From contig JAAYVG010000023.1 in assembly GCA_012517285.1 (NCBI GenBank), forward strand, positions 16,925 through 80,924: a DNA stretch of 64,000 nt, given 5' to 3'. Positions 53,888 through 64,000 of this stretch are shown here, piece after piece; the first letter of the stretch is position 1; each line of letters opens with the position of its first letter. The notes below the pieces were generated by a model that was not told the DNA's origin, did not search any database, and was given only the letters and a program-made list of their open reading frames with translations. The stretch is from Elusimicrobiota bacterium (GTDB lineage: Bacteria; Elusimicrobiota; Elusimicrobia; Elusimicrobiales; UBA9959). The translations under genes and the position numbers were made by a program.

Positions 53888-54835
53888 ATGAGTGATACTT
53901 TTAAGACGATAGTTGTTGTTGATGATGATCCAAATGTAGGTCTTCTTATATCCGTTATACTTAAAAATATTGGCTATTCTGTTGTATCACTTTCAAACGG
54001 TAAAGACCTTCTATCCTATCTTGCAAATAATTCAAAACCCGGACTGATACTCCTTGACTTAAAACTTCCAGATATAGATGGTTACGAGCTCTGCAAGCGA
54101 ATAAGAGATAATCAATTCACCTCTGATGTCCCGATAATTGTTCTTACAGGAGTTTCTGAGGTTGATTCAAAAATTAAGACCATTGAGATGGGGGCTGATG
54201 ACTATATAAGCAAACCATTTGATGTAAGAGAGTTGAAGGTTAGAATAAAAAGAATACTCAAAAGAAAGGATAACGATTCATCCCTTAATCCACTGACAAA
54301 ACTTCCAGGTGGGCCGCTTATAGAGGAATTTACGAGAAAGAAACTTGAAGTAGCTCCTAATTTTTCATATGCATATATAGATATAGATAATTTTAAGGCA
54401 TACAATGATGTTTATGGCTATACAAAGGGCGATGCTGTAATAAAATTTCTTGCTGATCTTTTAGAAAAAGTTTTAAAAGAAAACTCTAAGGGAGATTATT
54501 TTCTGGGTCATGTTGGTGGTGATGATTTTGTTGTATTAGCTCCAAATGATAAAATTATCAGAACTGTGGAAGGAATAATAGAAGAATTTGATACTAAAAT
54601 ACGTGATTATTACAGCATAGCAGACAGACAAGCAGGATATATAACAACAACAGACAGAATGAACAATATTAAGACATTTCCGATTATGACTCTCTCAATT
54701 GCTATAGTATCCGTTAGGAAAAGCATTCCATACGCGAAGATAATAGAAAATATATTTGAAATAAAAAGATTTTTAAAATCGAGACCAGTGAAGAACAAAA
54801 GCATATACCACAAGGATAGAAGAATAAATGAGTGA
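53888..54835 (+). CDS. Response regulator: REC domain + GGDEF-like domain carrying a GGDDF motif
   Basis: REC: DDD, phospho-acceptor in LLDLKLPDIDG, LTG and KPF. GGDEF-like: IDIDNFKAYNDVYGYTKGD and GHVGGDDF (54515-54529). Confidence 0.8.
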   Translation: MSDTFKTIVVVDDDPNVGLLISVILKNIGYSVVSLSNGKDLLSYLANNSKPGLILLDLKLPDIDGYELCKRIRDNQFTSDVPIIVLTGVSEVDSKIKTIEMGADDYISKPFDVRELKVRIKRILKRKDNDSSLNPLTKLPGGPLIEEFTRKKLEVAPNFSYAYIDIDNFKAYNDVYGYTKGDAVIKFLADLLEKVLKENSKGDYFLGHVGGDDFVVLAPNDKIIRTVEGIIEEFDTKIRDYYSIADRQAGYITTTDRMNNIKTFPIMTLSIAIVSVRKSIPYAKIIENIFEIKRFLKSRPVKNKSIYHKDRRINE

Positions 54836-56894
54836 TGAACTTATAAAAAAAACTTTTGCCAACTGCCTGATACTTGAAAAAATAGGTCAGGGGGGTATGG
54901 GAATAGTTTATAAAGCACACCATCTTTCACTTAACAAGGTTGTTTGTGTAAAGATACTTGCCAAAGAGCTTGAAGCAGATCCAAGGAATATTGACTTTTT
55001 TTTGAGAGAAGCTGAGATATCCAAACAATTAGATCATCCAAATACTGTTCATGTTTATGATTATGGTAAAGAAAAGGACAATTATTACATTGTAATGTCA
55101 TACGTTGAAGGGAAAAGCCTTGAGGATCTGGTTAAGGAAAAGAAATCACTTCCTGTTCCTGAAGCATCAAATATAATGTTAGGAGTATTCGAGGGCATAG
55201 CCCATGCTCATTCAAAGAATATTATACACAGGGATATAAAACCATCAAACATAATAGTTAACTCAAGCGGTGTGCCAAGAATAATTGATTTCGGTCTTGC
55301 AAGAAGGGTTGTTGAAGAAAAACAGCTTACAATCACAGGCGAGATGATCGGTACAGCTTATTTTATGTCACCAGAGCAGGGGCTTGGAAAGAAGGTTGAC
55401 AGCAGAGCAGATCTTTATTCCTGTGGTGCAACATACTTTTATATTCTTACAGGCAGGTATCCTTACGATGGCAAGAGTGCAATAGAGGTTATAAACAAGC
55501 ATATAACAGAACCGATACCAAATTTATATATGATAAAACCTGATCTTCCTATATGGCTTGTTAAGATAATAGATAAGCTCATGAATAAAAATCCTGACGA
55601 AAGATATCAAACTGCTGCTGAGGTCATAGAGGATATAAAAAAATATAAGGCCAAAAACTATGAAAACGTTATAATGTCATCTGAATCAGAATACAATCTT
55701 GAAGAACTTTCAAAGAGTGAAGAAAAGATAGTAGAGGTTTTCAAGGATAAAAAAAGAGAGAATGTTATAGAAGGAATAGAGGTTAAAGTTGAACAGAAAG
55801 ATAGCCAAAAATTGGAAATAAATAAAGGAGAGACCCAAGCAAAAGAAGAAATAGTTATAACCAAACCTAAAAAGCTTCAGTCCACAGCTTTATACAGGGT
55901 TGTAAGAATATCCTATCATATCTTTTATAGTCTGATAGCTATACTGTCTTTTTTTATATTTATGATTAATAATCCTGCGAAGGATCGTTATGCATTTATA
56001 AAATCACTTATTTCAAATCCATATTCACTTATATTTCCACTGATAGGTGGTTTTTTTATTTATTTACTCTTTAAATCTATGAAGATCAGATCAATATTCA
56101 CATATTTGTTTGTCCTTGCTTTATCACTTTTTAGTCTAACTTTGATACCACCACTGCTGGCTGAGCGATCAATACCATCAGCAATTGATAGATTCTTATA
56201 TCTTATTAAAGGAATTGATGTCAATTATAACAACCTTTTTATAATATCTTTTTTTACAGCTCTGCTGGCTCAAAAAATTCCGAAAACTCATTTAAAGCTT
56301 AATAAGCTAATATCATCTGTTTTTTTAATACTTTCTGTTCTGTTTATAAACAGATCGTTTATGGCTATGTTTGATGTTGACATATATAATAAATTTTTCT
56401 ATTTTGTCATATCTGTGATAGCTCTTTACTCCATAATTTTTATTTTTTATTTTAAAAAGAAATTTGCTTTTATAATATATATAATATCATCAATAGTTTT
56501 AATCTACGGTTTTAGAAATGATTATATAGAGAAAAAATTTAATGATATATATACTGCTGAGCTTATAAAATACAATAAATCTAAAGAAGAAACAGTACTG
56601 AAGATACAGGAGAATTTTTATTCAAAATTAGATAATACAAACAATTTTACAGGGAATTATGATGATATTGAAAAAAAGTTAAGAGCTGAGATAAAAGAAA
56701 AGCTTTCAACATTAAAAGAACCTGATAAGGAAATGATAAAAAATGATATATCTATAAAATATTTAAAATCTGTTAAACAAATCCTATATGACAACTATTC
56801 AAAATCTGTTGTCTTAGCTTTAATACTTTTCTGGTTGCTTCTAAACTACATATTTATAACAGATATATTTAAAAAGGAAAAATATGAATTATAA
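54828..56894 (+). CDS. Hanks-type Ser/Thr protein kinase with a polytopic membrane C-terminal half
   Basis: GQGGMGIVY, VCVK, HRDIKPSN, DFGLA and SPEQ motifs. About 7-8 TM segments lie after residue ~350. ATGAGTGA overlap with the upstream gene. Confidence 0.88.
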   Translation: MSDELIKKTFANCLILEKIGQGGMGIVYKAHHLSLNKVVCVKILAKELEADPRNIDFFLREAEISKQLDHPNTVHVYDYGKEKDNYYIVMSYVEGKSLEDLVKEKKSLPVPEASNIMLGVFEGIAHAHSKNIIHRDIKPSNIIVNSSGVPRIIDFGLARRVVEEKQLTITGEMIGTAYFMSPEQGLGKKVDSRADLYSCGATYFYILTGRYPYDGKSAIEVINKHITEPIPNLYMIKPDLPIWLVKIIDKLMNKNPDERYQTAAEVIEDIKKYKAKNYENVIMSSESEYNLEELSKSEEKIVEVFKDKKRENVIEGIEVKVEQKDSQKLEINKGETQAKEEIVITKPKKLQSTALYRVVRISYHIFYSLIAILSFFIFMINNPAKDRYAFIKSLISNPYSLIFPLIGGFFIYLLFKSMKIRSIFTYLFVLALSLFSLTLIPPLLAERSIPSAIDRFLYLIKGIDVNYNNLFIISFFTALLAQKIPKTHLKLNKLISSVFLILSVLFINRSFMAMFDVDIYNKFFYFVISVIALYSIIFIFYFKKKFAFIIYIISSIVLIYGFRNDYIEKKFNDIYTAELIKYNKSKEETVLKIQENFYSKLDNTNNFTGNYDDIEKKLRAEIKEKLSTLKEPDKEMIKNDISIKYLKSVKQILYDNYSKSVVLALILFWLLLNYIFITDIFKKEKYEL

Positions 56895-57699
56895 AATATC
56901 TTTTTGTGCAAAGACAGATAAGGGGCTTGTTCGTGATCACAATGAGGACAACTATATAATTGATGAGAGTATAAACTTTATGGCAATAGCTGATGGAATG
57001 GGAGGCCATAAAAATGGGGAACTGGCATCAAAAATTGCGATAGAAAAAGCGTATGGAATTATTAAAGATTTTATATCAAGCTCATCATCTTTTGAAAAGA
57101 CAAACAAGGATTATTCAATTTTAACCAACAAACTTTTATCAGCTTTTGATGTGGCGAACAATGAGATACTTGTCCAGTCAAAAAGTGATGAAAAGAATAA
57201 GGGTATGGGAACAACACTAACAGCTGTAATACTGAATGATATGATTCTTTCTCTTGTCCATATAGGCGATTCAAGGGCATATATAATCAGAGATTCTAAG
57301 ATAAAGCAAATATCTGATGACCACTCTTTTGTTATGGAGCAGTACAAGAAGGGAATTATAACTCTTGAAGAAGCGGAGAGATCACCATACAGAAATGTAC
57401 TGACAAGAGCACTTGGTGTTAAAGATGATGTGGAGTATTTTGTTTGTGAGGAAAAGATCAAAAAAGGTGATATAATACTTTTAGCCACTGATGGACTTAC
57501 AAAGATGGTAAAGGATGAAAAAATACTTGAAATAGTAAGCTCTTACTCTGATAACACTGAACTCATATGTTCAAACCTCATATTAGAAGCAAACAAAAAT
57601 GGTGGAGATGACAATATAACCGTTGCTGTGGCAAAGATCGATGGGGAAAAACTTTTGGCTAAGATTAAAAAAAGGATTAAAAAATGGATATTACATTAA
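56884..57699 (+). CDS. PP2C-family Ser/Thr phosphatase
   Basis: RDHNED, ADGMGGH, DGLT and GGDDNIT motifs. Confidence 0.88.
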   Translation: MNYKISFCAKTDKGLVRDHNEDNYIIDESINFMAIADGMGGHKNGELASKIAIEKAYGIIKDFISSSSSFEKTNKDYSILTNKLLSAFDVANNEILVQSKSDEKNKGMGTTLTAVILNDMILSLVHIGDSRAYIIRDSKIKQISDDHSFVMEQYKKGIITLEEAERSPYRNVLTRALGVKDDVEYFVCEEKIKKGDIILLATDGLTKMVKDEKILEIVSSYSDNTELICSNLILEANKNGGDDNITVAVAKIDGEKLLAKIKKRIKKWILH

Positions 57700-58295
57700 A
57701 CATAATTATAAAAAATTCAACAAAAATAGTGGGCGAGTATTTTTTTAAAAGTGATAGAATAACTATTGGAAGAAGCAAAACAAATGACATTGTTATCAAT
57801 GATCAAACAGTATCATCCAATCACTGTGTTATAAAAAAAGATGGCAGTGATTATTTCATAGAAGATCTTGACTCCACAAACGGGACTTTTGTAAACGGCG
57901 AAAAAATAAAAAAAGTGAGAATAAAAAATAATCAGATTTTAAAAATTGCCAGATGTTATGTCAGAATAATATTCTTGGATATGGACATAAGAAAAGCAGT
58001 TCTTAAAGTTATTGAAAATCCACTGGATGACAGAAAATCTTTCGATTTAAACAGATTGACAAAATTTATTGGCAGTTCAAAGTCTGATATACCTGTAAGA
58101 TCAAAAAATCAATTTACAATAATCTCGGACTATGCAGCCGCAGTTTCAATAAAAGATAACAAATACTATTTAATTCCTATAAATCCAGATTTGGTAAAAC
58201 ACAACTCTAATAACATAAAAAATGATATTGAATTAAATGATGACGATGAGATAAATGTAGGGATAACAAAATTTGTTTTTAAATTTGTTGAGTAA
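57684..58295 (+). CDS. FHA-domain protein (N-terminal canonical FHA plus a second divergent FHA-like half)
   Basis: The pattern GR....DI.I.D..VS..H..I......Y.IEDL.STNGT.VNG is present. Confidence 0.8.
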   Translation: MDITLNIIIKNSTKIVGEYFFKSDRITIGRSKTNDIVINDQTVSSNHCVIKKDGSDYFIEDLDSTNGTFVNGEKIKKVRIKNNQILKIARCYVRIIFLDMDIRKAVLKVIENPLDDRKSFDLNRLTKFIGSSKSDIPVRSKNQFTIISDYAAAVSIKDNKYYLIPINPDLVKHNSNNIKNDIELNDDDEINVGITKFVFKFVE

Positions 58296-58447: not shown

Positions 58448-60389
<1,942 letters not shown>

Positions 60390-60423
60390 TAGTTATTAAA
60401 ATGGTGTTTAGTTAAAGTGAAGC

Positions 60424-60453
60424 GAGCCCCCTCTTAAAAGAGGGGGCTTTTTT
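60424..60453 (+). terminator. Rho-independent terminator of groESL
   Basis: GCCCCCTCT-TAAA-AGAGGGGGC followed by T6. Confidence 0.9.
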
Positions 60454-60582
60454 CTGTGTGAGATATATTCGAAGAAATGGAAATGATATTGAATACCCTG
60501 CCACCATAATCCCATGAGCAAAAACTATTATCCAGAATTTTAATGAATATTTCATAACTTAATTTTAGGATAGTTTTTCCAC

Positions 60583-60614
60583 TTGACATCACATTTTTTT
60601 TTTTTTTCTACAAT
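60583..60614 (+). promoter_or_regulatory. Promoter of the cassette array. TTGACA (60583-60588) and TACAAT (60609-60614) are separated by a 20-nt spacer that contains a T14 homopolymer (60594-60607).
   Basis: Read directly. SD AAGGAGG and the ATG at 60640 follow. Confidence 0.6.
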
Positions 60615-60639
60615 TTAATAAGATATAAAGGAGGAGAGA

Positions 60640-61461
60640 ATGATAGGGATATTTATGGGTATAATATTGTCAATATACAGCTCATCGTATGCTCAGAATA
60701 AAGATAATGTAATTAATTTGAATGATATTAATTCTGCATTCTCATTAAACTTAAATCAGATTCCAAAACCTGAATTTAAATTAGATAGAAATATTCAAGA
60801 ACTAAACTTTATATTTAACTGGAATGATTTTTATATGAGATATGGTTATGATTTTACATATGAGAATAAAACATTTATGTTAAAGGCAGGATTTTTAAGA
60901 GGAGATTTTGATGAATATACTATGACATATAAGTCAATACCATCAATTATAGTTATATATAAACAAGGAGAAAATCATACTACGGTATGGAATCCAATAA
61001 AAACTGGTGAAAGTATAAATTTTGAAAATAATATTTTGATAACATTTAATAGCAATATGTCTATCACTGTAAAGAATAAAAACAACAATCAACAGATTAT
61101 AAACATTAACTTCAGTGATATTTTAAACAAGTGGCTTGAATATGCTAATAATTATTGGTATTTAGTAAACAACAACAAATATTATTTTGTACCACAGGAG
61201 ATATGGGGAAGTGATGGATTTTTTCACCGAGGATATGTTGTAAGTGAAAACTCACCATTGTACTATACAACAAACCTGCCTCAGGATTATGTAGAGCTAT
61301 ATAAGTATAATTGTGCAACTAATCCATGCTCATACGAATATAAACCTGTATCATATTCAGTTCCTTTAAGGATAAAGTTTGTGCTTAAACAGGATAAGAG
61401 TGCATGGTTAGTTAAGGAGATGACTCCTGAAGAGGTGGCTGACGAGGCTGTTAACAGATAA
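60640..61461 (+). CDS. Cassette protein X1: 273-aa secreted Asn/Tyr-rich protein of unknown function ending in ..PEEVADEAVNR
   Basis: Strong SD and a short hydrophobic N-terminus ending SSSYAQ. The last ~11 codons belong to the junction repeat. Confidence 0.65.
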   Translation: MIGIFMGIILSIYSSSYAQNKDNVINLNDINSAFSLNLNQIPKPEFKLDRNIQELNFIFNWNDFYMRYGYDFTYENKTFMLKAGFLRGDFDEYTMTYKSIPSIIVIYKQGENHTTVWNPIKTGESINFENNILITFNSNMSITVKNKNNNQQIININFSDILNKWLEYANNYWYLVNNNKYYFVPQEIWGSDGFFHRGYVVSENSPLYYTTNLPQDYVELYKYNCATNPCSYEYKPVSYSVPLRIKFVLKQDKSAWLVKEMTPEEVADEAVNR

Positions 61462-61463
61462 AA

Positions 61464-61589
61464 ATGACAGAAAAAAAGAAAAAGATACTATTAAAGATAA
61501 CAGACTGGATACTCAATATTTTAATCATATATTATTTAGGAATAAATTTATTAATTGGTATCGTAGTTTTAATACTGATAATGAAATAA
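61464..61589 (+). CDS. Mini membrane protein A1 (41 aa): MTEKKKKILLKITDWILNILIIYYLGINLLIGIVVLILIMK
   Basis: Starts 2 nt after the X1 stop. It has a Lys-rich N-terminus and one TM helix. It is identical to A3 at protein level, with one synonymous SNP. Confidence 0.55.
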   Translation: MTEKKKKILLKITDWILNILIIYYLGINLLIGIVVLILIMK

Positions 61590-61598
61590 AAGCAGGCT

Positions 61599-61733
61599 AT
61601 GAATATTAAGAAAAAGTTTATAATAAAATTGATTGTATTAATAGCGATGTTTCTCATTTATCAGCTATGGACAGTTAAAATGATAAAAGAAATAAAAGAT
61701 TTTATGCGATCTTTAGAGAGTTTTCTAATATAG
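61599..61733 (+). CDS. Mini membrane protein B1 (44 aa): MNIKKKFIIKLIVLIAMFLIYQLWTVKMIKEIKDFMRSLESFLI
   Basis: Its N-terminal 35 aa are identical to B3 and about 60% identical to B2 despite DNA divergence. Confidence 0.55.
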   Translation: MNIKKKFIIKLIVLIAMFLIYQLWTVKMIKEIKDFMRSLESFLI

Positions 61734-61778
61734 GAATGATACTGAAGAGGTGGCTGACGAGGCTGTTAACAGATAAAA

Positions 61779-61916
61779 ATGACAGAAAAAAAGAAAAAGA
61801 TACTATTAAGGATAACAGACTGGATACTCAATATTTTAATCATATATTATTTAATAATGAATTTAGTAAGTGGTATTTTCGCTTTAATATGGGCAATCAA
61901 TGAAGGCAAATTATGA
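61779..61916 (+). CDS. Mini membrane protein A2 (45 aa), a diverged paralogue of A1/A3
   Basis: The first 25 aa match A1 apart from K11R. The tail diverges but stays hydrophobic. It is preceded by an orphan ..EEVADEAVNR-stop stub (61742-61776). Confidence 0.55.
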   Translation: MTEKKKKILLRITDWILNILIIYYLIMNLVSGIFALIWAINEGKL

Positions 61917-62101
61917 ATATTAGGAAAAAGTTTATTATAAAGATAATAGTTTTTTTGATAATGTTTACAGTTTACCAGTTATGGAGCATTAAAGTAATAG
62001 ATAAAATAAATGATATGATAGAATACGGTCGATGCCAGCCTTGGTGGATAATAGGAAATTTAAAATACTGTAATAAAAAACCATGGTGGCAATTTTGGTG
62101 A
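61913..62101 (+). CDS. Mini protein B2 (62 aa) with a conserved B-type N-terminus and a Trp/Cys-rich tail (EYGRCQPWWIIGNLKYCNKKPWWQFW)
   Basis: ATGA overlap with A2. ORF present in the supplied track. Confidence 0.6.
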   Translation: MNIRKKFIIKIIVFLIMFTVYQLWSIKVIDKINDMIEYGRCQPWWIIGNLKYCNKKPWWQFW

Positions 62102-62107
62102 TGTTAT

Positions 62108-63298
62108 ATGAAAAAAATATTTAATATGATGTTGTTTTTTTTGATTCTTATTTCACCCATAGATATATATGCAAACACAGAAAACGATTTAATTGATTTA
62201 TACAATAGTAGTTTTAACAATGACAATATTATAATTCCAACTCCAGATTTTTCGATTGATGATGATAAAAGTTCTATCCTTGTATATTTACTTGGGAGAT
62301 ACAAAAAATTAAATGAATCTGAGGAAAGCAAGATTTCCGTTTCATTGAACATACTAAGCCAGACAATAACTGGAAACATCCTATGCTCAAAATTAGGGGT
62401 TCAGGATTGTACACGAAGGGAATTAAGCAAGATAAATTTGGAATTTAGAAAAGGTGATTTGCTTTCTTCATTATTTGGAGAGCCAACATTTTATGCTTTT
62501 GTCCCACCACCATCTCAAGTTAACAAGAGAAAGATTATATGCATAGATGAGGGTTTTTTAGATACTTCAGATGTATCTGTCACTGCCCATTTTATTGCTC
62601 ATGAGATTTCACATGTATATGATAATAAAATATTTGGTGAATACTACCATTTTGAATTATATGAAGGGAAAATCAAGCCAAGAATGAATCAATTAAGAAT
62701 GCTATTTTCAGAGTATAAAGCTGTATTCATTCAAATGTCTATATATAATGAGCTTGTAACAAAAAAGTATATTAAACGCAACAGAAACGATGCAATAGAT
62801 TTTTTATTATCAATCTATAGATGGAAAGAAACAGGAAATATAAAAGAGATAAACCTTAACTTTACAAATAATGTCGGGAATAAAACATACACAGCAAAGG
62901 ATTATATGAACATATGTAAAAAAGTTAAGAATGGAAGAAGTTGTATATATGAATTAACAAAAATTTTTTGTGGTATAAACCTATCAAACATGAATCTATC
63001 CAATGATGAAGCTCAGAGAAATTATATCTATATAGATTTTGTGATCAAAAATGTAAAAGAATATGAAAGCAAATACAAAAATTTTTTTCCTCCAACACAG
63101 CCAATAGAACCAGAGAACAACAACACTGATAATAATGATAACAACCATCCACACCCACCGTCACCAATTCAGCCGGGACCAGTTCCTCAACCACCTGATT
63201 ACGATCCACCATGGGATGACCATAACGGAAACCCATCAACCCCGCCAATACACATGAGATATAAATCATTGATTGATTTCATTGAAGATAATATATAA
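62108..63298 (+). CDS. Cassette protein X3: 396-aa secreted protein with an HExxH motif (putative Zn metallopeptidase) and a Pro-rich C-terminal region
   Basis: Signal peptide MKKIFNMMLFFLILISPIDIYA. FIAHEISHVYD at 62600-62614. C-terminal region PPTQPIEPE..HPHPPSPIQPGPVPQPPDYDPPWDD. Confidence 0.65.
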   Translation: MKKIFNMMLFFLILISPIDIYANTENDLIDLYNSSFNNDNIIIPTPDFSIDDDKSSILVYLLGRYKKLNESEESKISVSLNILSQTITGNILCSKLGVQDCTRRELSKINLEFRKGDLLSSLFGEPTFYAFVPPPSQVNKRKIICIDEGFLDTSDVSVTAHFIAHEISHVYDNKIFGEYYHFELYEGKIKPRMNQLRMLFSEYKAVFIQMSIYNELVTKKYIKRNRNDAIDFLLSIYRWKETGNIKEINLNFTNNVGNKTYTAKDYMNICKKVKNGRSCIYELTKIFCGINLSNMNLSNDEAQRNYIYIDFVIKNVKEYESKYKNFFPPTQPIEPENNNTDNNDNNHPHPPSPIQPGPVPQPPDYDPPWDDHNGNPSTPPIHMRYKSLIDFIEDNI

Positions 63299-63367
63299 AA
63301 TTAGTTTAGAGAATAAAATGATCGACATAGTTATTCATCTGGCTGACGAGGCAGTTAACAGATAAAA

Positions 63368-63493
63368 ATGACAGAAAAAAAGAAAAAGATACTATTAAAG
63401 ATAACAGACTGGATACTCAATATTTTAATCATATATTATTTAGGAATAAATTTATTAATTGGTATCGTGGTTTTAATACTGATAATGAAATAA
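63368..63493 (+). CDS. Mini membrane protein A3 (41 aa), identical in protein sequence to A1
   Basis: Part of junction-repeat copy 3 (63340-63607), which differs from copy 1 at 2 of 268 nt. Confidence 0.55.
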   Translation: MTEKKKKILLKITDWILNILIIYYLGINLLIGIVVLILIMK

Positions 63494-63502
63494 AAGCAGG
63501 CT

Positions 63503-63661
63503 ATGAATATTAAGAAAAAGTTTATAATAAAATTGATTGTATTAATAGCGATGTTTCTCATTTATCAGCTATGGACAGTTAAAATGATAAAAGAAATAAA
63601 AGATTTTGCACAATCTTTAGAGCGTATACCCTATTCATTAGGTCCAGGTCAAAATAATTGA
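63503..63661 (+). CDS. Mini membrane protein B3 (52 aa): B-type N-terminus with a third, different tail (AQSLERIPYSLGPGQNN)
   Basis: Read directly. The downstream DNA retains a decayed homologue of the B2 tail. Confidence 0.5.
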   Translation: MNIKKKFIIKLIVLIAMFLIYQLWTVKMIKEIKDFAQSLERIPYSLGPGQNN

Positions 63662-63708
63662 GGATAGGTAACAAAAGATTATGGCGGAATTTCTGGAGAT
63701 AATCGCTT

Positions 63709-63798
63709 ATGAAAAAAATATTATTTTTCGTTGTGTTAGGTTTTATAGTTCAGGGAACTGGAGGAGCAGAAAATATATTATGGTATAGTAATATATAA
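63709..63798 (+). pseudogene. 29-codon signal-peptide stub (MKKILFFVVLGFIVQGTGGAENILWYSNI), probably a truncated fourth cassette protein
   Basis: Its start context, ATGAAAAAAATAT, is the same as that of X3. Confidence 0.4.
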
Positions 63799-63916
63799 AT
63801 AGGATCACTGAAAAAGCCTAACGGAGAATAAGGGCGATAATTCGGTTGGTGGATTTTTAAAACTTCATATGTAAAAATCAAAAAAATCTTAACTTCTTAC
63901 TTTTTCAGTCGCATCT

Positions 63917-63940
63917 CCTGCCTGCCGAAGCGGCTTCGCC
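63917..63940. repeat. Truncated copy of the CCTGCCTGCCGAAGCGGCTTCG palindrome (right arm degenerate)
   Basis: Read directly. Confidence 0.7.
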
Positions 63941-64000
63941 ATGCTGGTTGTATTAGATAATTCTCCTGTTTATAAAAGCAGTAAAAATTTGCTATAATAT

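What the first reader, a model, noticed from the sequence alone, without database searches (positions are those of the whole stretch)
60583..63798. Unrecognised tandem cassette array: variable secreted proteins alternating with a conserved 'C-terminal stub + two mini membrane ORFs' junction module
**Where it starts.** Right after the groEL terminator the window stops looking like core genome.

**The repeat.** A 270-315 bp unit occurs three times.
- Copy 1 is at 61427-61741.
- Copy 2 is at 61742-62101.
- Copy 3 is at 63340-63607.
- Copies 1 and 3 differ at only 2 of 268 positions, and both changes are synonymous in the frames I propose.
- Copy 2 is identical for about 115 bp. It then diverges at DNA level but keeps the hydrophobic and charge pattern of both ORFs.

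**What each unit contains.**
- The last 8-11 codons of an upstream ORF (..EEVADEAVNR-stop).
- Two nucleotides later, ORF A: 41-45 aa with a KKKK N-terminus and one TM helix.
- Then ORF B: 44-62 aa with one TM helix.

**What lies between units.** The units are interleaved with mutually unrelated signal-peptide proteins. X1 is 273 aa. X3 is 396 aa and carries HExxH. The array decays into a 29-codon signal-peptide stub.

**Interpretation.** I do not recognise A, B or X1 as members of any named family. Conserved junctions around swappable secreted payloads suggest cassette exchange by homologous recombination. One reading is a polymorphic effector locus in which a two-peptide membrane module acts in immunity, export or anchoring. 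That reading is inference.
Basis: partly seen in the sequence, partly recalled or inferred. Interest (0 to 1): 0.85.

Follow-up and report, generated by a model that had tools for sequence, protein, structure and literature searches.

The report
Duplicated middle of a secreted-protease operon
The repeats are real, but they are not a cassette array: they are extra copies of the middle of a rare four-gene Elusimicrobia operon, and they bound a 1.9-kb stretch, carrying the putative metalloprotease gene, that all seven complete sister-strain assemblies lack.

Summary
Three copies of a roughly 290-bp unit exist. Each contains the last codons of X1, then the small membrane ORF A, then the small membrane ORF B. 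Copies 1 and 3 are 98-99% identical. Copy 2 is a mosaic.

**A and B are real genes.**
- They are intact in all sister strains.
- B has dN/dS of about 0.3.
- A-like and B-like ORFs sit at the same position in a distant Elusimicrobia genome.

- X1 and X3 are not swappable payloads.
- In five other lineages an X1 homologue, one or two small membrane proteins and an X3 homologue lie together, once each. They form one operon.
- The window carries that operon with its X1-tail/A/B junction duplicated, plus a dead 29-codon stub of a second X3.

**The locus varies between strains.**
- Seven complete assemblies at 96-99% nucleotide identity have X1-A-B-stub only.
- They lack 1,904 bp that includes X3, and the breakpoints fall exactly in copies 1 and 3.
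- This fits recombination between direct repeats.

**Function is inferred.**
- X3 belongs to a tiny HExxH…E family: 23 representatives among 1.84 billion proteins. It is remotely linked to Peptidase_M91.
- X1, A and B match no known family.
- A toxin/immunity reading is not excluded.

The parts
60424..60449 (+). groEL intrinsic terminator. It is the left boundary of the locus.
   Evidence: Terminator-like hairpin followed by a T run. groEL is 58770-60389.
60583..60614 (+). Putative promoter of the operon. It has a perfect -35 TTGACA (60583-60588), a T14 tract (60594-60607) and a -10-like TACAAT (60609-60614). The spacer is 20 nt here.
   Evidence: Read from the sequence. Tract length differs between near-identical strains: T14, T10, T9 and T8+CTCTC, giving spacers of 20, 16, 15 and 18 nt. 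The consensus scanner did not report it because the spacer exceeds 18 nt.
60640..61461 (+). X1: a 273-aa exported, beta-rich protein and the first gene of the operon. It has a strong RBS (AAGGAGGAGAGA).
   Evidence: ORF. Only 3 homologue clusters among 5.8 billion proteins. The homologues are aligned. AF2 gives pLDDT 58 and a mostly beta model. No family or fold match.
61436..61721 (+). Repeat copy 1 (J1): the X1 3' end, A1 and most of B1.
   Evidence: the repeat finder family D1; alignment.
61464..61589 (+). A1: a 41-aa single-pass membrane protein with a KKKK N-terminus. It starts 2 nt after the X1 stop.
   Evidence: ORF. Intact in all sister strains. An A-like ORF with the motif I.(D/N)W.LN.LII lies at the same position in L019. 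Hydropathy.
61599..61733 (+). B1: a 44-aa truncated copy of B. It loses the conserved tail at the J1/J2 junction.
   Evidence: The first 35 codons are identical to B3, then it diverges and stops. It lacks the P-aromatic-x-L/I-G tail seen in B2, B3 and the L019 and L023 homologues.
61742..61776 (+). Remnant of an X1 3' end (..TEEVADEAVNR-stop) at the head of repeat copy 2. About 15-20 nt of degenerate X1-like sequence lie just upstream.
   Evidence: Alignment and direct reading of the sequence.
61779..61916 (+). A2: a 45-aa diverged paralogue of A.
   Evidence: ORF. The first 25 codons are near-identical to A1 and the rest has diverged.
61913..62101 (+). B2: a 62-aa full-length diverged paralogue of B, directly upstream of X3.
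   Evidence: ORF. B1 versus B2 gives dN/dS 0.30, with differences by codon position of 11/4/16.
62108..63298 (+). X3: a 396-aa exported putative zinc metallopeptidase (HEISH at residues 165-169, D172, E202) with a Pro-rich C-terminal tail. It is the last gene of the operon.
   Evidence: ORF. Homologous to the genes downstream of X1 homologues: BLASTP E 7e-35 against L011, alignments. The family has 23 representatives among 1.84 billion proteins. The Peptidase_M91 link is remote and runs through family members.
61722..63625 (.). A 1,904-bp segment present in the window and absent from all sister-strain assemblies. It is equivalently placed at 61436-63339 because its ends lie in the 286-bp direct repeat.
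   Evidence: BLASTN of the window against L001-L006 and L021; alignment.
63340..63625 (+). Repeat copy 3 (J3): an X1-tail remnant (LADEAVNR-stop, 63340-63365), A3 and B3.
   Evidence: the repeat finder D1, 98% identical to copy 1. Degenerate X1-like sequence runs from about 63304.
63368..63493 (+). A3: 41 aa, identical in protein sequence to A1.
63503..63661 (+). B3: 52 aa. This is the form of B found in all sister strains.
   Evidence: pN/pS is 0.28 among 6 strains.
63709..63798 (+). A 29-codon stub: the dead 5' end of a second X3-type gene.
   Evidence: The region from the end of B to the ATG aligns with the B2-to-X3 junction. L002 has a premature stop inside it. No further X3-like sequence lies downstream.

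Best explanation
**What it is.** The locus is one lineage-specific envelope operon, X1-A-B-X3, in an Elusimicrobia genome. Its internal junction has been duplicated.

**The ancestral unit.** It is found once each in other lineages and consists of:
- an exported beta-rich protein (X1);
- one or two tiny N-in single-pass membrane proteins (A and B);
- an exported HExxH…E putative zinc metallopeptidase (X3).

**The window's layout.** In this strain the segment 'last about 10 codons of X1 + A + B' occurs three times.
- J1 follows X1, and its B is truncated.
- J2 is the diverged copy that still leads into X3.
- J3 leads into a dead 29-codon stub of a second X3.

**Inferred consequences.**
- The copies arose by nested segmental or tandem duplication.
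- Their first ~110 nt (the X1 tail and the 5' part of A) have been kept alike by gene conversion.
- J1 and J3 are 286-bp direct repeats, so RecA-type recombination between them removes, or reinstates, the 1.9-kb J2-X3 segment. This produces the short allele X1-A-B-stub carried by all sister strains examined.

**Inferred function.**
- X3 is a Sec-exported zincin acting in the periplasm or outside the cell.
- X1 is its exported partner.
- B, through its periplasmic tail, and A tether or control them at the inner membrane.
- A strain-variable poly-T tract in the promoter spacer probably tunes or switches expression.
For: **Shown: conserved synteny**
- Five other lineages carry X1h, then small TM ORF(s), then X3h: L011/L012 and L013-18, L019 and L020, and L023.
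- X1 homology is E 1e-36 to 1e-40.
- X3 homology is BLASTP E 7e-35.
- L019 has both an A-like and a B-like ORF.

**Shown: repeat anatomy**
-.

**Shown: indel bounded by the repeats**
- Seven complete sister-strain assemblies from ENA, JGI and NCBI (96-99% nucleotide identity, the six with groEL in view encoding an identical GroEL protein) show the short allele.
- X3, A2, B2 and B1 are not on record on any other contig. The X3 cluster has 1 member on 1 contig.

**Shown: A and B are coding**
- B1/B2 dN/dS is 0.30.
- Both are intact in all strains. pN/pS is 0.28 for B and 0.51 for A.

**Shown: the stub is dead**
- L002 has a premature stop inside it.
- No X3 remnant lies beyond it.

**Shown: the X3 catalytic motif**
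- H165, E166 and H169 are invariant. D172, E202, K204 and A205 are near-invariant across 20 members.
- Peptidase_M91 is hit by 3 of 20 members. The best reaches 25.2 bits against a cutoff of 25.

**Shown: promoter tract**
- Poly-T length varies between strains.
Against: - The long allele is seen in a single short-read MAG, and no reads were available.
- The direction of change, deletion in the sisters versus insertion in the window, is not resolved.
  - At the informative SNP 61449 all sisters carry the J3 base. A simple J1×J3 crossover would rarely give that.
- J1 is close to J3 (99%) while J2 is diverged (dS about 1 for B). This needs either gene conversion or an old or foreign origin for J2-X3.
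- The window's X3 itself hits no Pfam family, and its AF2 model failed (pLDDT 38). 'Metallopeptidase' therefore rests on the motif and on transitive homology.
- The roles of X1, A and B are pure inference.
- Poly-T length differences could partly be assembly noise.
Confidence: 0.7

Rival explanations
1. Toxin/immunity (competition) locus. X3 is a Sec-exported M91-like metallopeptidase toxin or effector. The A-B pair, especially B's periplasmic tail, is its cognate membrane immunity. The diverged A2-B2 goes with X3, and A/B3 went with the lost second X3. Most strains have dropped the toxin but kept 'orphan' immunity.
For: - The X3 family has a remote link to Peptidase_M91.
- M91 domains occur in antibacterial T6SS effectors. 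One of them, the S. Dublin Rhs-M91, has a putative 110-aa single-TM immunity protein (PMC8867033; also PMC9846239).
- Each X3-type gene, live or dead, is preceded by its own A-B variant.
- Every strain that lost X3 keeps A and B intact and under purifying selection.
- Presence/absence polymorphism and a variable promoter are typical of competition loci.
Against: - No toxin, immunity or defence family hit for any of the four proteins.
- X1 is conserved together with the others everywhere and has no role in this model.
- The putative immunity genes lie upstream of the toxin.
- X3 has only a Sec signal and no known delivery domain.
- In L020 the small proteins are replaced by a 257-aa protein.
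- No X3 polymorphism between strains has been observed.
Confidence: 0.2
2. One reading: a tandem cassette array in which conserved A-B junction modules let unrelated secreted payload genes be swapped in and out.
For: - There are three junction copies.
- A repeat-bounded presence/absence of one 'payload' is seen between strains.
Against: - X1 and X3 are conserved together as one operon in five other lineages without any repeats.
- Only one state other than the window's was found, a simple loss. No alternative payload was seen in the seven complete assemblies.
- There are no attC-like inverted repeats in the unit.
- No integrase or recombinase lies in the flanks.
- The J pattern is absent from viral contigs. 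It occurs once in the metagenome scan, as the short allele.
Confidence: 0.04
3. Assembly artefact. The extra copies or their order come from mis-threading of near-identical repeats or from mixing co-occurring strains in a short-read metagenome assembly.
For: - The long allele has been seen only once.
- Several contigs of sister strains break at or near the repeat or the poly-T tract: L005, L007 and L008-L010.
- The exact repeat of 138 nt is close to the usual maximum k of 141.
Against: - The J1/J2 junction, J2, X3 and the X3/J3 junction are unique sequences that must exist in the sample.
- SNPs at 61449, 61497 and 61565 allow unambiguous threading with k≥140.
- X3 is a bona fide family member whose B2-X3 junction resembles those of the outgroups.
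Confidence: 0.06
4. Remnant of a phage lysis or holin-dependent secretion cassette, with the small membrane proteins as holin/spanin-like and X3 as the peptidase.
For: - Small single-TM proteins sit next to a putative peptidase.
- There are very weak holin-like Pfam hits on the outgroup small ORFs (E 0.008-0.06).
Against: - No PHROG hits of note.
- No X1 or X3 relatives in 2.9 million viral contigs.
- The flanks are core genes, groEL and yggS.
- X3 and X1 carry their own Sec signal peptides.
Confidence: 0.03

Closest known systems
Peptidase_M91 (PF14891; NleD-type zincin effectors, also the C-terminal domains of some T6SS Rhs/VgrG effectors)
   Same: - The HExxH zincin motif has a conserved acidic residue downstream.
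- Three distant members of the X3 family hit the M91 model over the region up to and including HExxH. The best reaches 25.2 bits against a cutoff of 25.
- Some M91 effectors have a small single-TM putative immunity protein next to them (PMC8867033).
   Different: - The window's X3 does not hit M91 itself.
- X3 proteins are stand-alone and Sec-exported. They have a Pro-rich linker and, in most members, a Gly-rich tail ending in NP[HQN]F. They are not fused to T3SS, T6SS or Rhs delivery parts.
- They are always paired with an X1-family protein.
Repeat-mediated deletion or duplication between direct repeats (RecA-dependent unequal recombination)
   Same: - 286-bp direct repeats at 98-99% identity flank a segment that is present in one strain and absent in seven complete sister-strain assemblies.
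- The breakpoints lie inside the repeats.
   Different: Nothing unusual mechanistically. The direction of the event and the origin of the third, diverged copy remain unresolved.
Orphan toxin/immunity modules of polymorphic-toxin loci (CDI, Rhs)
   Same: - Short conserved stretches of a coding sequence are repeated together with small downstream genes.
- The locus holds a dead gene fragment.
- Content varies between strains.
   Different: - The repeated piece here is the conserved extreme C-terminus of X1, not a junction in front of a variable toxin domain.
- There is no VENN or PxxxxDPxGL-type demarcation.
- There is no large delivery protein.
- No variable C-terminal toxin domains have been observed.
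Integron gene-cassette arrays
   Same: Superficially, genes alternate with a repeated element.
   Different: - There is no integrase.
- There are no attC-type imperfect inverted repeats.
- The repeated element is coding.
- The 'cassettes' are partners of one operon.
Homopolymer-tract phase-variable promoters (for example the spacer tracts of Neisseria, Haemophilus and Mycoplasma surface-protein genes; from general knowledge)
   Same: A homopolymer lies between the -35 and -10 hexamers. Its length differs among near-identical strains and changes the spacer to 15, 16, 18 or 20 nt.
   Different: - Switching within a clone is not demonstrated.
- Nothing is known about promoters in this phylum.
- Homopolymer assembly error cannot be excluded.

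Membership tests
Integron cassette array | An intI integrase with attI next to the array | tested here: not met
   The flanks are groES-groEL upstream and yggS (Ala_racemase_N), PF1765-like and IF-2B downstream. No integrase is among the called genes within ±10 kb in sister contigs.
Integron cassette array | attC sites (imperfect inverted repeats) at cassette ends | tested here: not met
   No inverted repeat lies within or bounding the unit. The unit is two conserved ORFs plus a gene tail.
Polymorphic toxin / CDI-Rhs orphan array | A large conserved delivery protein with a variable C-terminal toxin domain after a conserved demarcation motif | tested here: not met
   X1 is 273 aa. Its C-terminus is the conserved part across the family. 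No toxin domain hits.
Polymorphic toxin / CDI-Rhs orphan array | Different toxin/immunity pairs at the same locus in different strains | tested here: not met
   The seven complete sister-strain assemblies show only the loss of X3. There are no alternative genes.
Peptidase_M91 (for X3) | A match to PF14891 at or above the gathering score | tested here: inconclusive
   Window X3 has no hit. Family member P0024 scores 25.2 bits against a cutoff of 25. P0025 and P0026 score 14-15 bits over the same profile region.
Peptidase_M91 (for X3) | The HExxH zinc-binding and catalytic motif | tested here: met
   HEISH at residues 165-169. H, E and H are invariant in 20 family members.
Peptidase_M91 (for X3) | A zincin fold and metal-dependent proteolysis | not testable with these tools
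   The AF2 model had pLDDT 37.8. There is no PDB sequence relative. Only Foldseek against pdb and the viral library could be run.
Phage lysis cassette (holin, endolysin, spanin) | Relatives in phage genomes or phage protein families | tested here: not met
   PHROGs gave nothing below E 0.008. No relatives in viral contigs.
Conserved X1-TM-X3 operon (defined here) | An X1-family gene, then small N-in single-TM ORF(s), then an X3-family gene, all on the same strand and adjacent | tested here: met
   The window plus L011/12, L013-18, L019, L020 (which has a 257-aa TM protein instead) and L023.
Phase-variable promoter (homopolymer in the spacer) | Tract length varies and changes the -35/-10 spacing | tested here: met
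   T14, T10, T9 and T8+CTCTC among strains at 96-99% nucleotide identity.
Phase-variable promoter (homopolymer in the spacer) | Reversible ON/OFF switching of expression within a lineage | not testable with these tools
   This needs reads, a reporter or RNA data.

The most novel reading that the evidence does not exclude
X1-A-B-X3 is an undescribed Sec-dependent competition or surface-remodelling system of Elusimicrobia.
- X3 is an M91-like metallopeptidase toxin or effector.
- B, with A, is a cognate mini-membrane immunity or anchor pair.
- X1 is a variable-loop, surface-exposed partner.
- The duplicated junctions act as built-in recombination substrates.
- Together with a poly-T phase-variable promoter, they make the locus a contingency locus that switches between armed (X3+) and immune-only (X3-) states in the population.
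Probability: 0.15. Interest if true: 0.6.

Novelty: new variant of a known kind. Interest (0 to 1): 0.35.

Why it matters
**What it corrects.** An apparent new type of cassette array becomes something simpler and testable. It is a very rare, uncharacterised four-gene envelope operon of an uncultivated phylum, whose protease gene is gained or lost between strains through duplicated internal junctions.

**What would make it more interesting.**
- X3 proving to be an exported M91-like peptidase, with A and B as its membrane partners or immunity.
- That would add a Sec-dependent, stand-alone branch to a zincin family known mainly from injected effectors.
- It would also give a first example of contingency-type variation in Elusimicrobia: repeat-mediated gene loss plus a homopolymer in the promoter.

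**As it stands.** The mechanics, duplication and recombination between direct repeats, are ordinary.

Tried and rejected
**Family and structure searches that found nothing useful**
- Pfam, NCBIfam, PADLOC and PHROGs on X1, X3, A, B and outgroup homologues gave nothing significant, apart from the borderline M91 hits on distant X3 relatives.
- PDB sequence searches with X1 and X3 profiles returned only low-complexity noise.
- The AF2 model of X3, from a 2-sequence alignment, was unusable at pLDDT 38.
- The AF2 model of X1 (pLDDT 58) gave no significant Foldseek match in PDB. The best was E 0.018 with TM 0.17.
- Rfam found nothing on 60300-64000.

**Searches for other copies**
- Viral contigs held no J pattern and no X1 or X3 relatives.
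- Exact look-ups of X3, A2, B2 and B1 on other contigs found none.
- The metagenome scan for the J pattern gave one more contig, carrying the short allele.
- No X3 remnants were found beyond the stub.
- Cluster look-ups of X3-family representatives carried no organism names.

**Readings considered and rejected**
- Integron-like array.
- CDI/Rhs orphan array.
- Phage lysis cassette.
- Non-coding RNA repeat.

**Left open**
- I tried to decide deletion versus insertion from the two J1/J3 SNPs. The result was uninformative or conflicting.

Full report
**1.

The region after the groEL terminator (hairpin at 60424-60449) holds these ORFs on the + strand:

| Gene | Coordinates | Length |
|---|---|---|
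| X1 | 60640-61461 | 273 aa |
| A1 | 61464-61589 | 41 aa |
| B1 | 61599-61733 | 44 aa |
| A2 | 61779-61916 | 45 aa |
| B2 | 61913-62101 | 62 aa |
| X3 | 62108-63298 | 396 aa, HEISH |
| A3 | 63368-63493 | 41 aa |
| B3 | 63503-63661 | 52 aa |
| stub | 63709-63798 | 29 codons |

- The repeat finder returns one three-copy direct family: 61436-61721, 61751-62036 (63%) and 63340-63625 (98%).
- A 30-mer of the unit occurs three times in the window, against 0 in shuffles.
- Copies 1 and 3 differ at 61449 and 61565 only, up to 61703. Both changes are synonymous.
- Copy 2 is a mosaic. It matches at 112 of its first 115 nt, then at about 65-72% with a 1-nt indel.
- No Rfam family matches the region.

**2. 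A and B are genes**

- B1 versus B2 gives dN/dS of 0.30, with differences at codon positions 1/2/3 of 11/4/16.
- In the sister strains A and B keep their exact lengths.
  - B has 6 synonymous and 7 mostly conservative non-synonymous segregating changes, for pN/pS of 0.28.
  - A has few variable sites, for pN/pS of 0.51.
- A distant genome (L019, Elusimicrobia UBA9634) has matching ORFs between its X1 and X3 homologues.
  - One is a 36-40-aa ORF overlapping the X1-homologue stop. It carries 'RILNWVLNVLII', against 'KITDWILNILII' in A.
  - The other is a 62-aa single-TM ORF.
- Both A and B have a basic N-terminus followed by one hydrophobic helix. This implies an N-in topology (inference).
- B's tail carries a loosely conserved P-aromatic-x-L/I-G motif (my reading).
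  - It is seen in B2, B3, L019 and L023.
  - B1 lacks it, so B1 is a truncated copy.

**3. X1 and X3 are partners, not payloads**

X1 has only three homologue clusters among 5.8 billion proteins. I fetched the contigs of the distant ones and scanned GTDB genomes. In every case the X1 homologue is followed by small TM ORF(s) and then an X3 homologue.

| Locus | X1 homologue | Middle | X3 homologue |
|---|---|---|---|
| L011/L012 | 302 aa | 73-aa TM ORF | 437 aa, HELSH |
| L013-18 | 284 aa | 65-aa TM ORF | 358-385 aa |
| L019 | 301 aa | A-like and B-like ORFs | 415 aa |
| L020 | 308 aa | 257-aa N-terminally anchored protein | 409 aa |
| L023 | about 308 aa | TM ORF | 434 aa (P0005) |

- Window X3 against the L011 gene gives BLASTP E 7e-35.
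- Genomic neighbourhoods differ between lineages, so the three- or four-gene unit is autonomous.
- None of these loci has the repeat.
- The 'C-terminal stub' of the finding is the family-conserved C-terminus of X1: MTPEEVADEAVNR against MTPEEIGEAMLER.

**4. The locus differs between strains at the repeats**

The organism is an Elusimicrobia MAG. X3 is NCBI GX445_03435, on a 95-kb contig.

- Contigs encoding an identical GroEL protein were recovered from ENA, JGI, NCBI (GCA_018000795.1) and Logan, and one more (L021) from the metagenome scan for the J pattern.
- Seven complete assemblies carry groEL-X1-A-B(52 aa)-stub-yggS: L001-L004, L006, L021 and L022 (L022 is the same contig as L004). L005 breaks off inside the unit.
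- They align to the window at 96-99% up to 61721 and again from 63340. They therefore lack 1,904 bp: the B1 tail, J2, X3 and the spacer.
- This is not repeat collapse in the sister assemblies.
  - X3's cluster has one member on one contig among about 15 billion proteins.
  - X3, A2, B2 and B1 are not on record elsewhere.
- The stub is dead. It has a premature stop in L002 and no X3-like sequence follows it.
- The DNA from the end of B3 to the stub ATG aligns with the B2-to-X3 junction. A second X3 therefore once followed J3.

**5. History (inference)**

- The layout fits nested tandem duplications of 'X1-tail-A-B(-X3)' followed by deletions.
- The first ~110 nt, the X1 tail plus the 5' part of A, have been homogenised among all copies.
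- Recombination between direct repeats then gives the short allele.
- The direction of that change is not settled.
  - At 61449 all sisters carry the J3 base.
  - At 61565 they are polymorphic.
- J2-X3 is much more diverged from J1 and J3 (dS about 1 for B) than the flanks are between strains. It is either an old paralogue or an import.
- The assembly is technically plausible.
  - The longest exact J1/J3 stretch is 138 nt.
  - SNPs at 61449, 61497 and 61565 thread the copies.
  - It remains unverified without reads.

**6. Function**

*X3*
- It belongs to a tiny family: 23 representatives at E≤1e-3 among 1.84 billion proteins.
- H165, E166 and H169 are invariant. D172, E202, K204, A205 and W239 are near-invariant.
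- Members have a signal peptide, a Pro-rich linker and, in most, a Gly-rich tail ending in NP[HQN]F. Two members carry BACON_2.
- No Pfam or NCBIfam model hits the window protein.
- Three distant members hit Peptidase_M91 over the region up to HExxH. The best scores 25.2 bits against a cutoff of 25, E 2.3e-5.
- M91 is the NleD-type zincin. It is also found in antibacterial T6SS effectors, one of which has a putative single-TM immunity protein (PMC9846239, PMC8867033).

*X1*
- It is beta-rich (AF2 pLDDT 58) and has no fold match.
- It has a strain-hypervariable patch at residues 105-118 and an overall pN/pS of 0.80.

*Working model, marked as inference*
- X3 is a Sec-exported zincin.
- X1 is its exported partner.
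- A and B are small inner-membrane tethers, regulators or immunity proteins.
- The toxin/immunity version is a live rival at about 0.2.

**7. Promoter**

- A perfect TTGACA (60583-60588) and a TACAAT (60609-60614) are separated by a tract that is T14 in the window.
- The same tract is T10, T9 or T8+CTCTC in sister strains. Spacers are 20, 16, 15 and 18 nt.
- Three Logan contigs end just after it.
- This looks like a contingency-type promoter. Homopolymer assembly error is not excluded.

**8. Verdict**

- The repeat and the small ORFs are confirmed.
- The 'cassette array of swappable payloads' is not supported.
- The locus is a rare, uncharacterised operon with its own middle duplicated, and with a repeat-bounded polymorphism for loss or gain of its putative protease.
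- The mechanics are ordinary. The gene families are new but their function is unknown.
- Interest is about 0.35.

Noticed in passing
window 60583-60614 (poly-T at 60594-60607): A homopolymeric T tract lies between a perfect -35 and a -10-like hexamer upstream of X1. Its length varies among near-identical strains: T14, T10, T9 and T8+CTCTC. Some strains also carry TTAACA in place of TTGACA. It is a candidate phase-variable or expression-tuning promoter.
   Followed up: partly
window 60640-61461, X1 residues 105-118 (about 60952-60993): X1 has a hypervariable patch: VIYKQGENHTTVWN against FIYKQRENYIRALK and YAMIWK in sister strains. Its overall pN/pS is 0.80, although GroEL next door is identical in protein sequence. 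The patch falls in a low-confidence loop of the AF2 model. This suggests an exposed loop under diversifying or relaxed selection.
   Followed up: partly
X3 family members P0005-P0026; L011 9025-10338; L019 7044-8291; L020 7593-8822: Most X3-family proteins end with a Pro/Gln-rich linker, a Gly-rich stretch and a C-terminal NP[HQN]F-type motif. Examples are ..PNPHF, ..NPQFPPGTWPTSGQ and ..GLDNPGAGNF. Two carry a BACON_2 domain. This may be an unrecognised C-terminal sorting or anchoring signal. The window's X3 lacks it.
   Followed up: no
window 53888-58295: Directly upstream of groES-groEL lies a signalling cluster: response regulator-GGDEF, a 688-aa Ser/Thr kinase, a PP2C phosphatase and an FHA-domain protein. 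It is conserved in all sister contigs (Pfam marks).
   Followed up: no
L001 19053-21620 versus L002 and L006 19225-21620 (downstream of the window's end): About 6 kb beyond the locus the sister strains differ again. L001 has a type I restriction-modification system (HsdR-like helicase and Methylase_S). L002 and L006 have the outer-membrane phospholipase PLA1 and EptA there. This is a second strain-variable spot.
   Followed up: no
L020 6820-7593: In one distant lineage a single 257-aa protein occupies the place of the small A/B proteins between the X1 and X3 homologues. It is N-terminally membrane-anchored and has no family hit. It could reveal what the small proteins do.
   Followed up: partly
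window 61532-61657 and 63436-63561 (- strand): A 41-aa antisense ORF is repeated within copies 1 and 3. It is most likely a by-product of the AT-rich sequence, because the outgroup and selection evidence supports the + strand genes.
   Followed up: no
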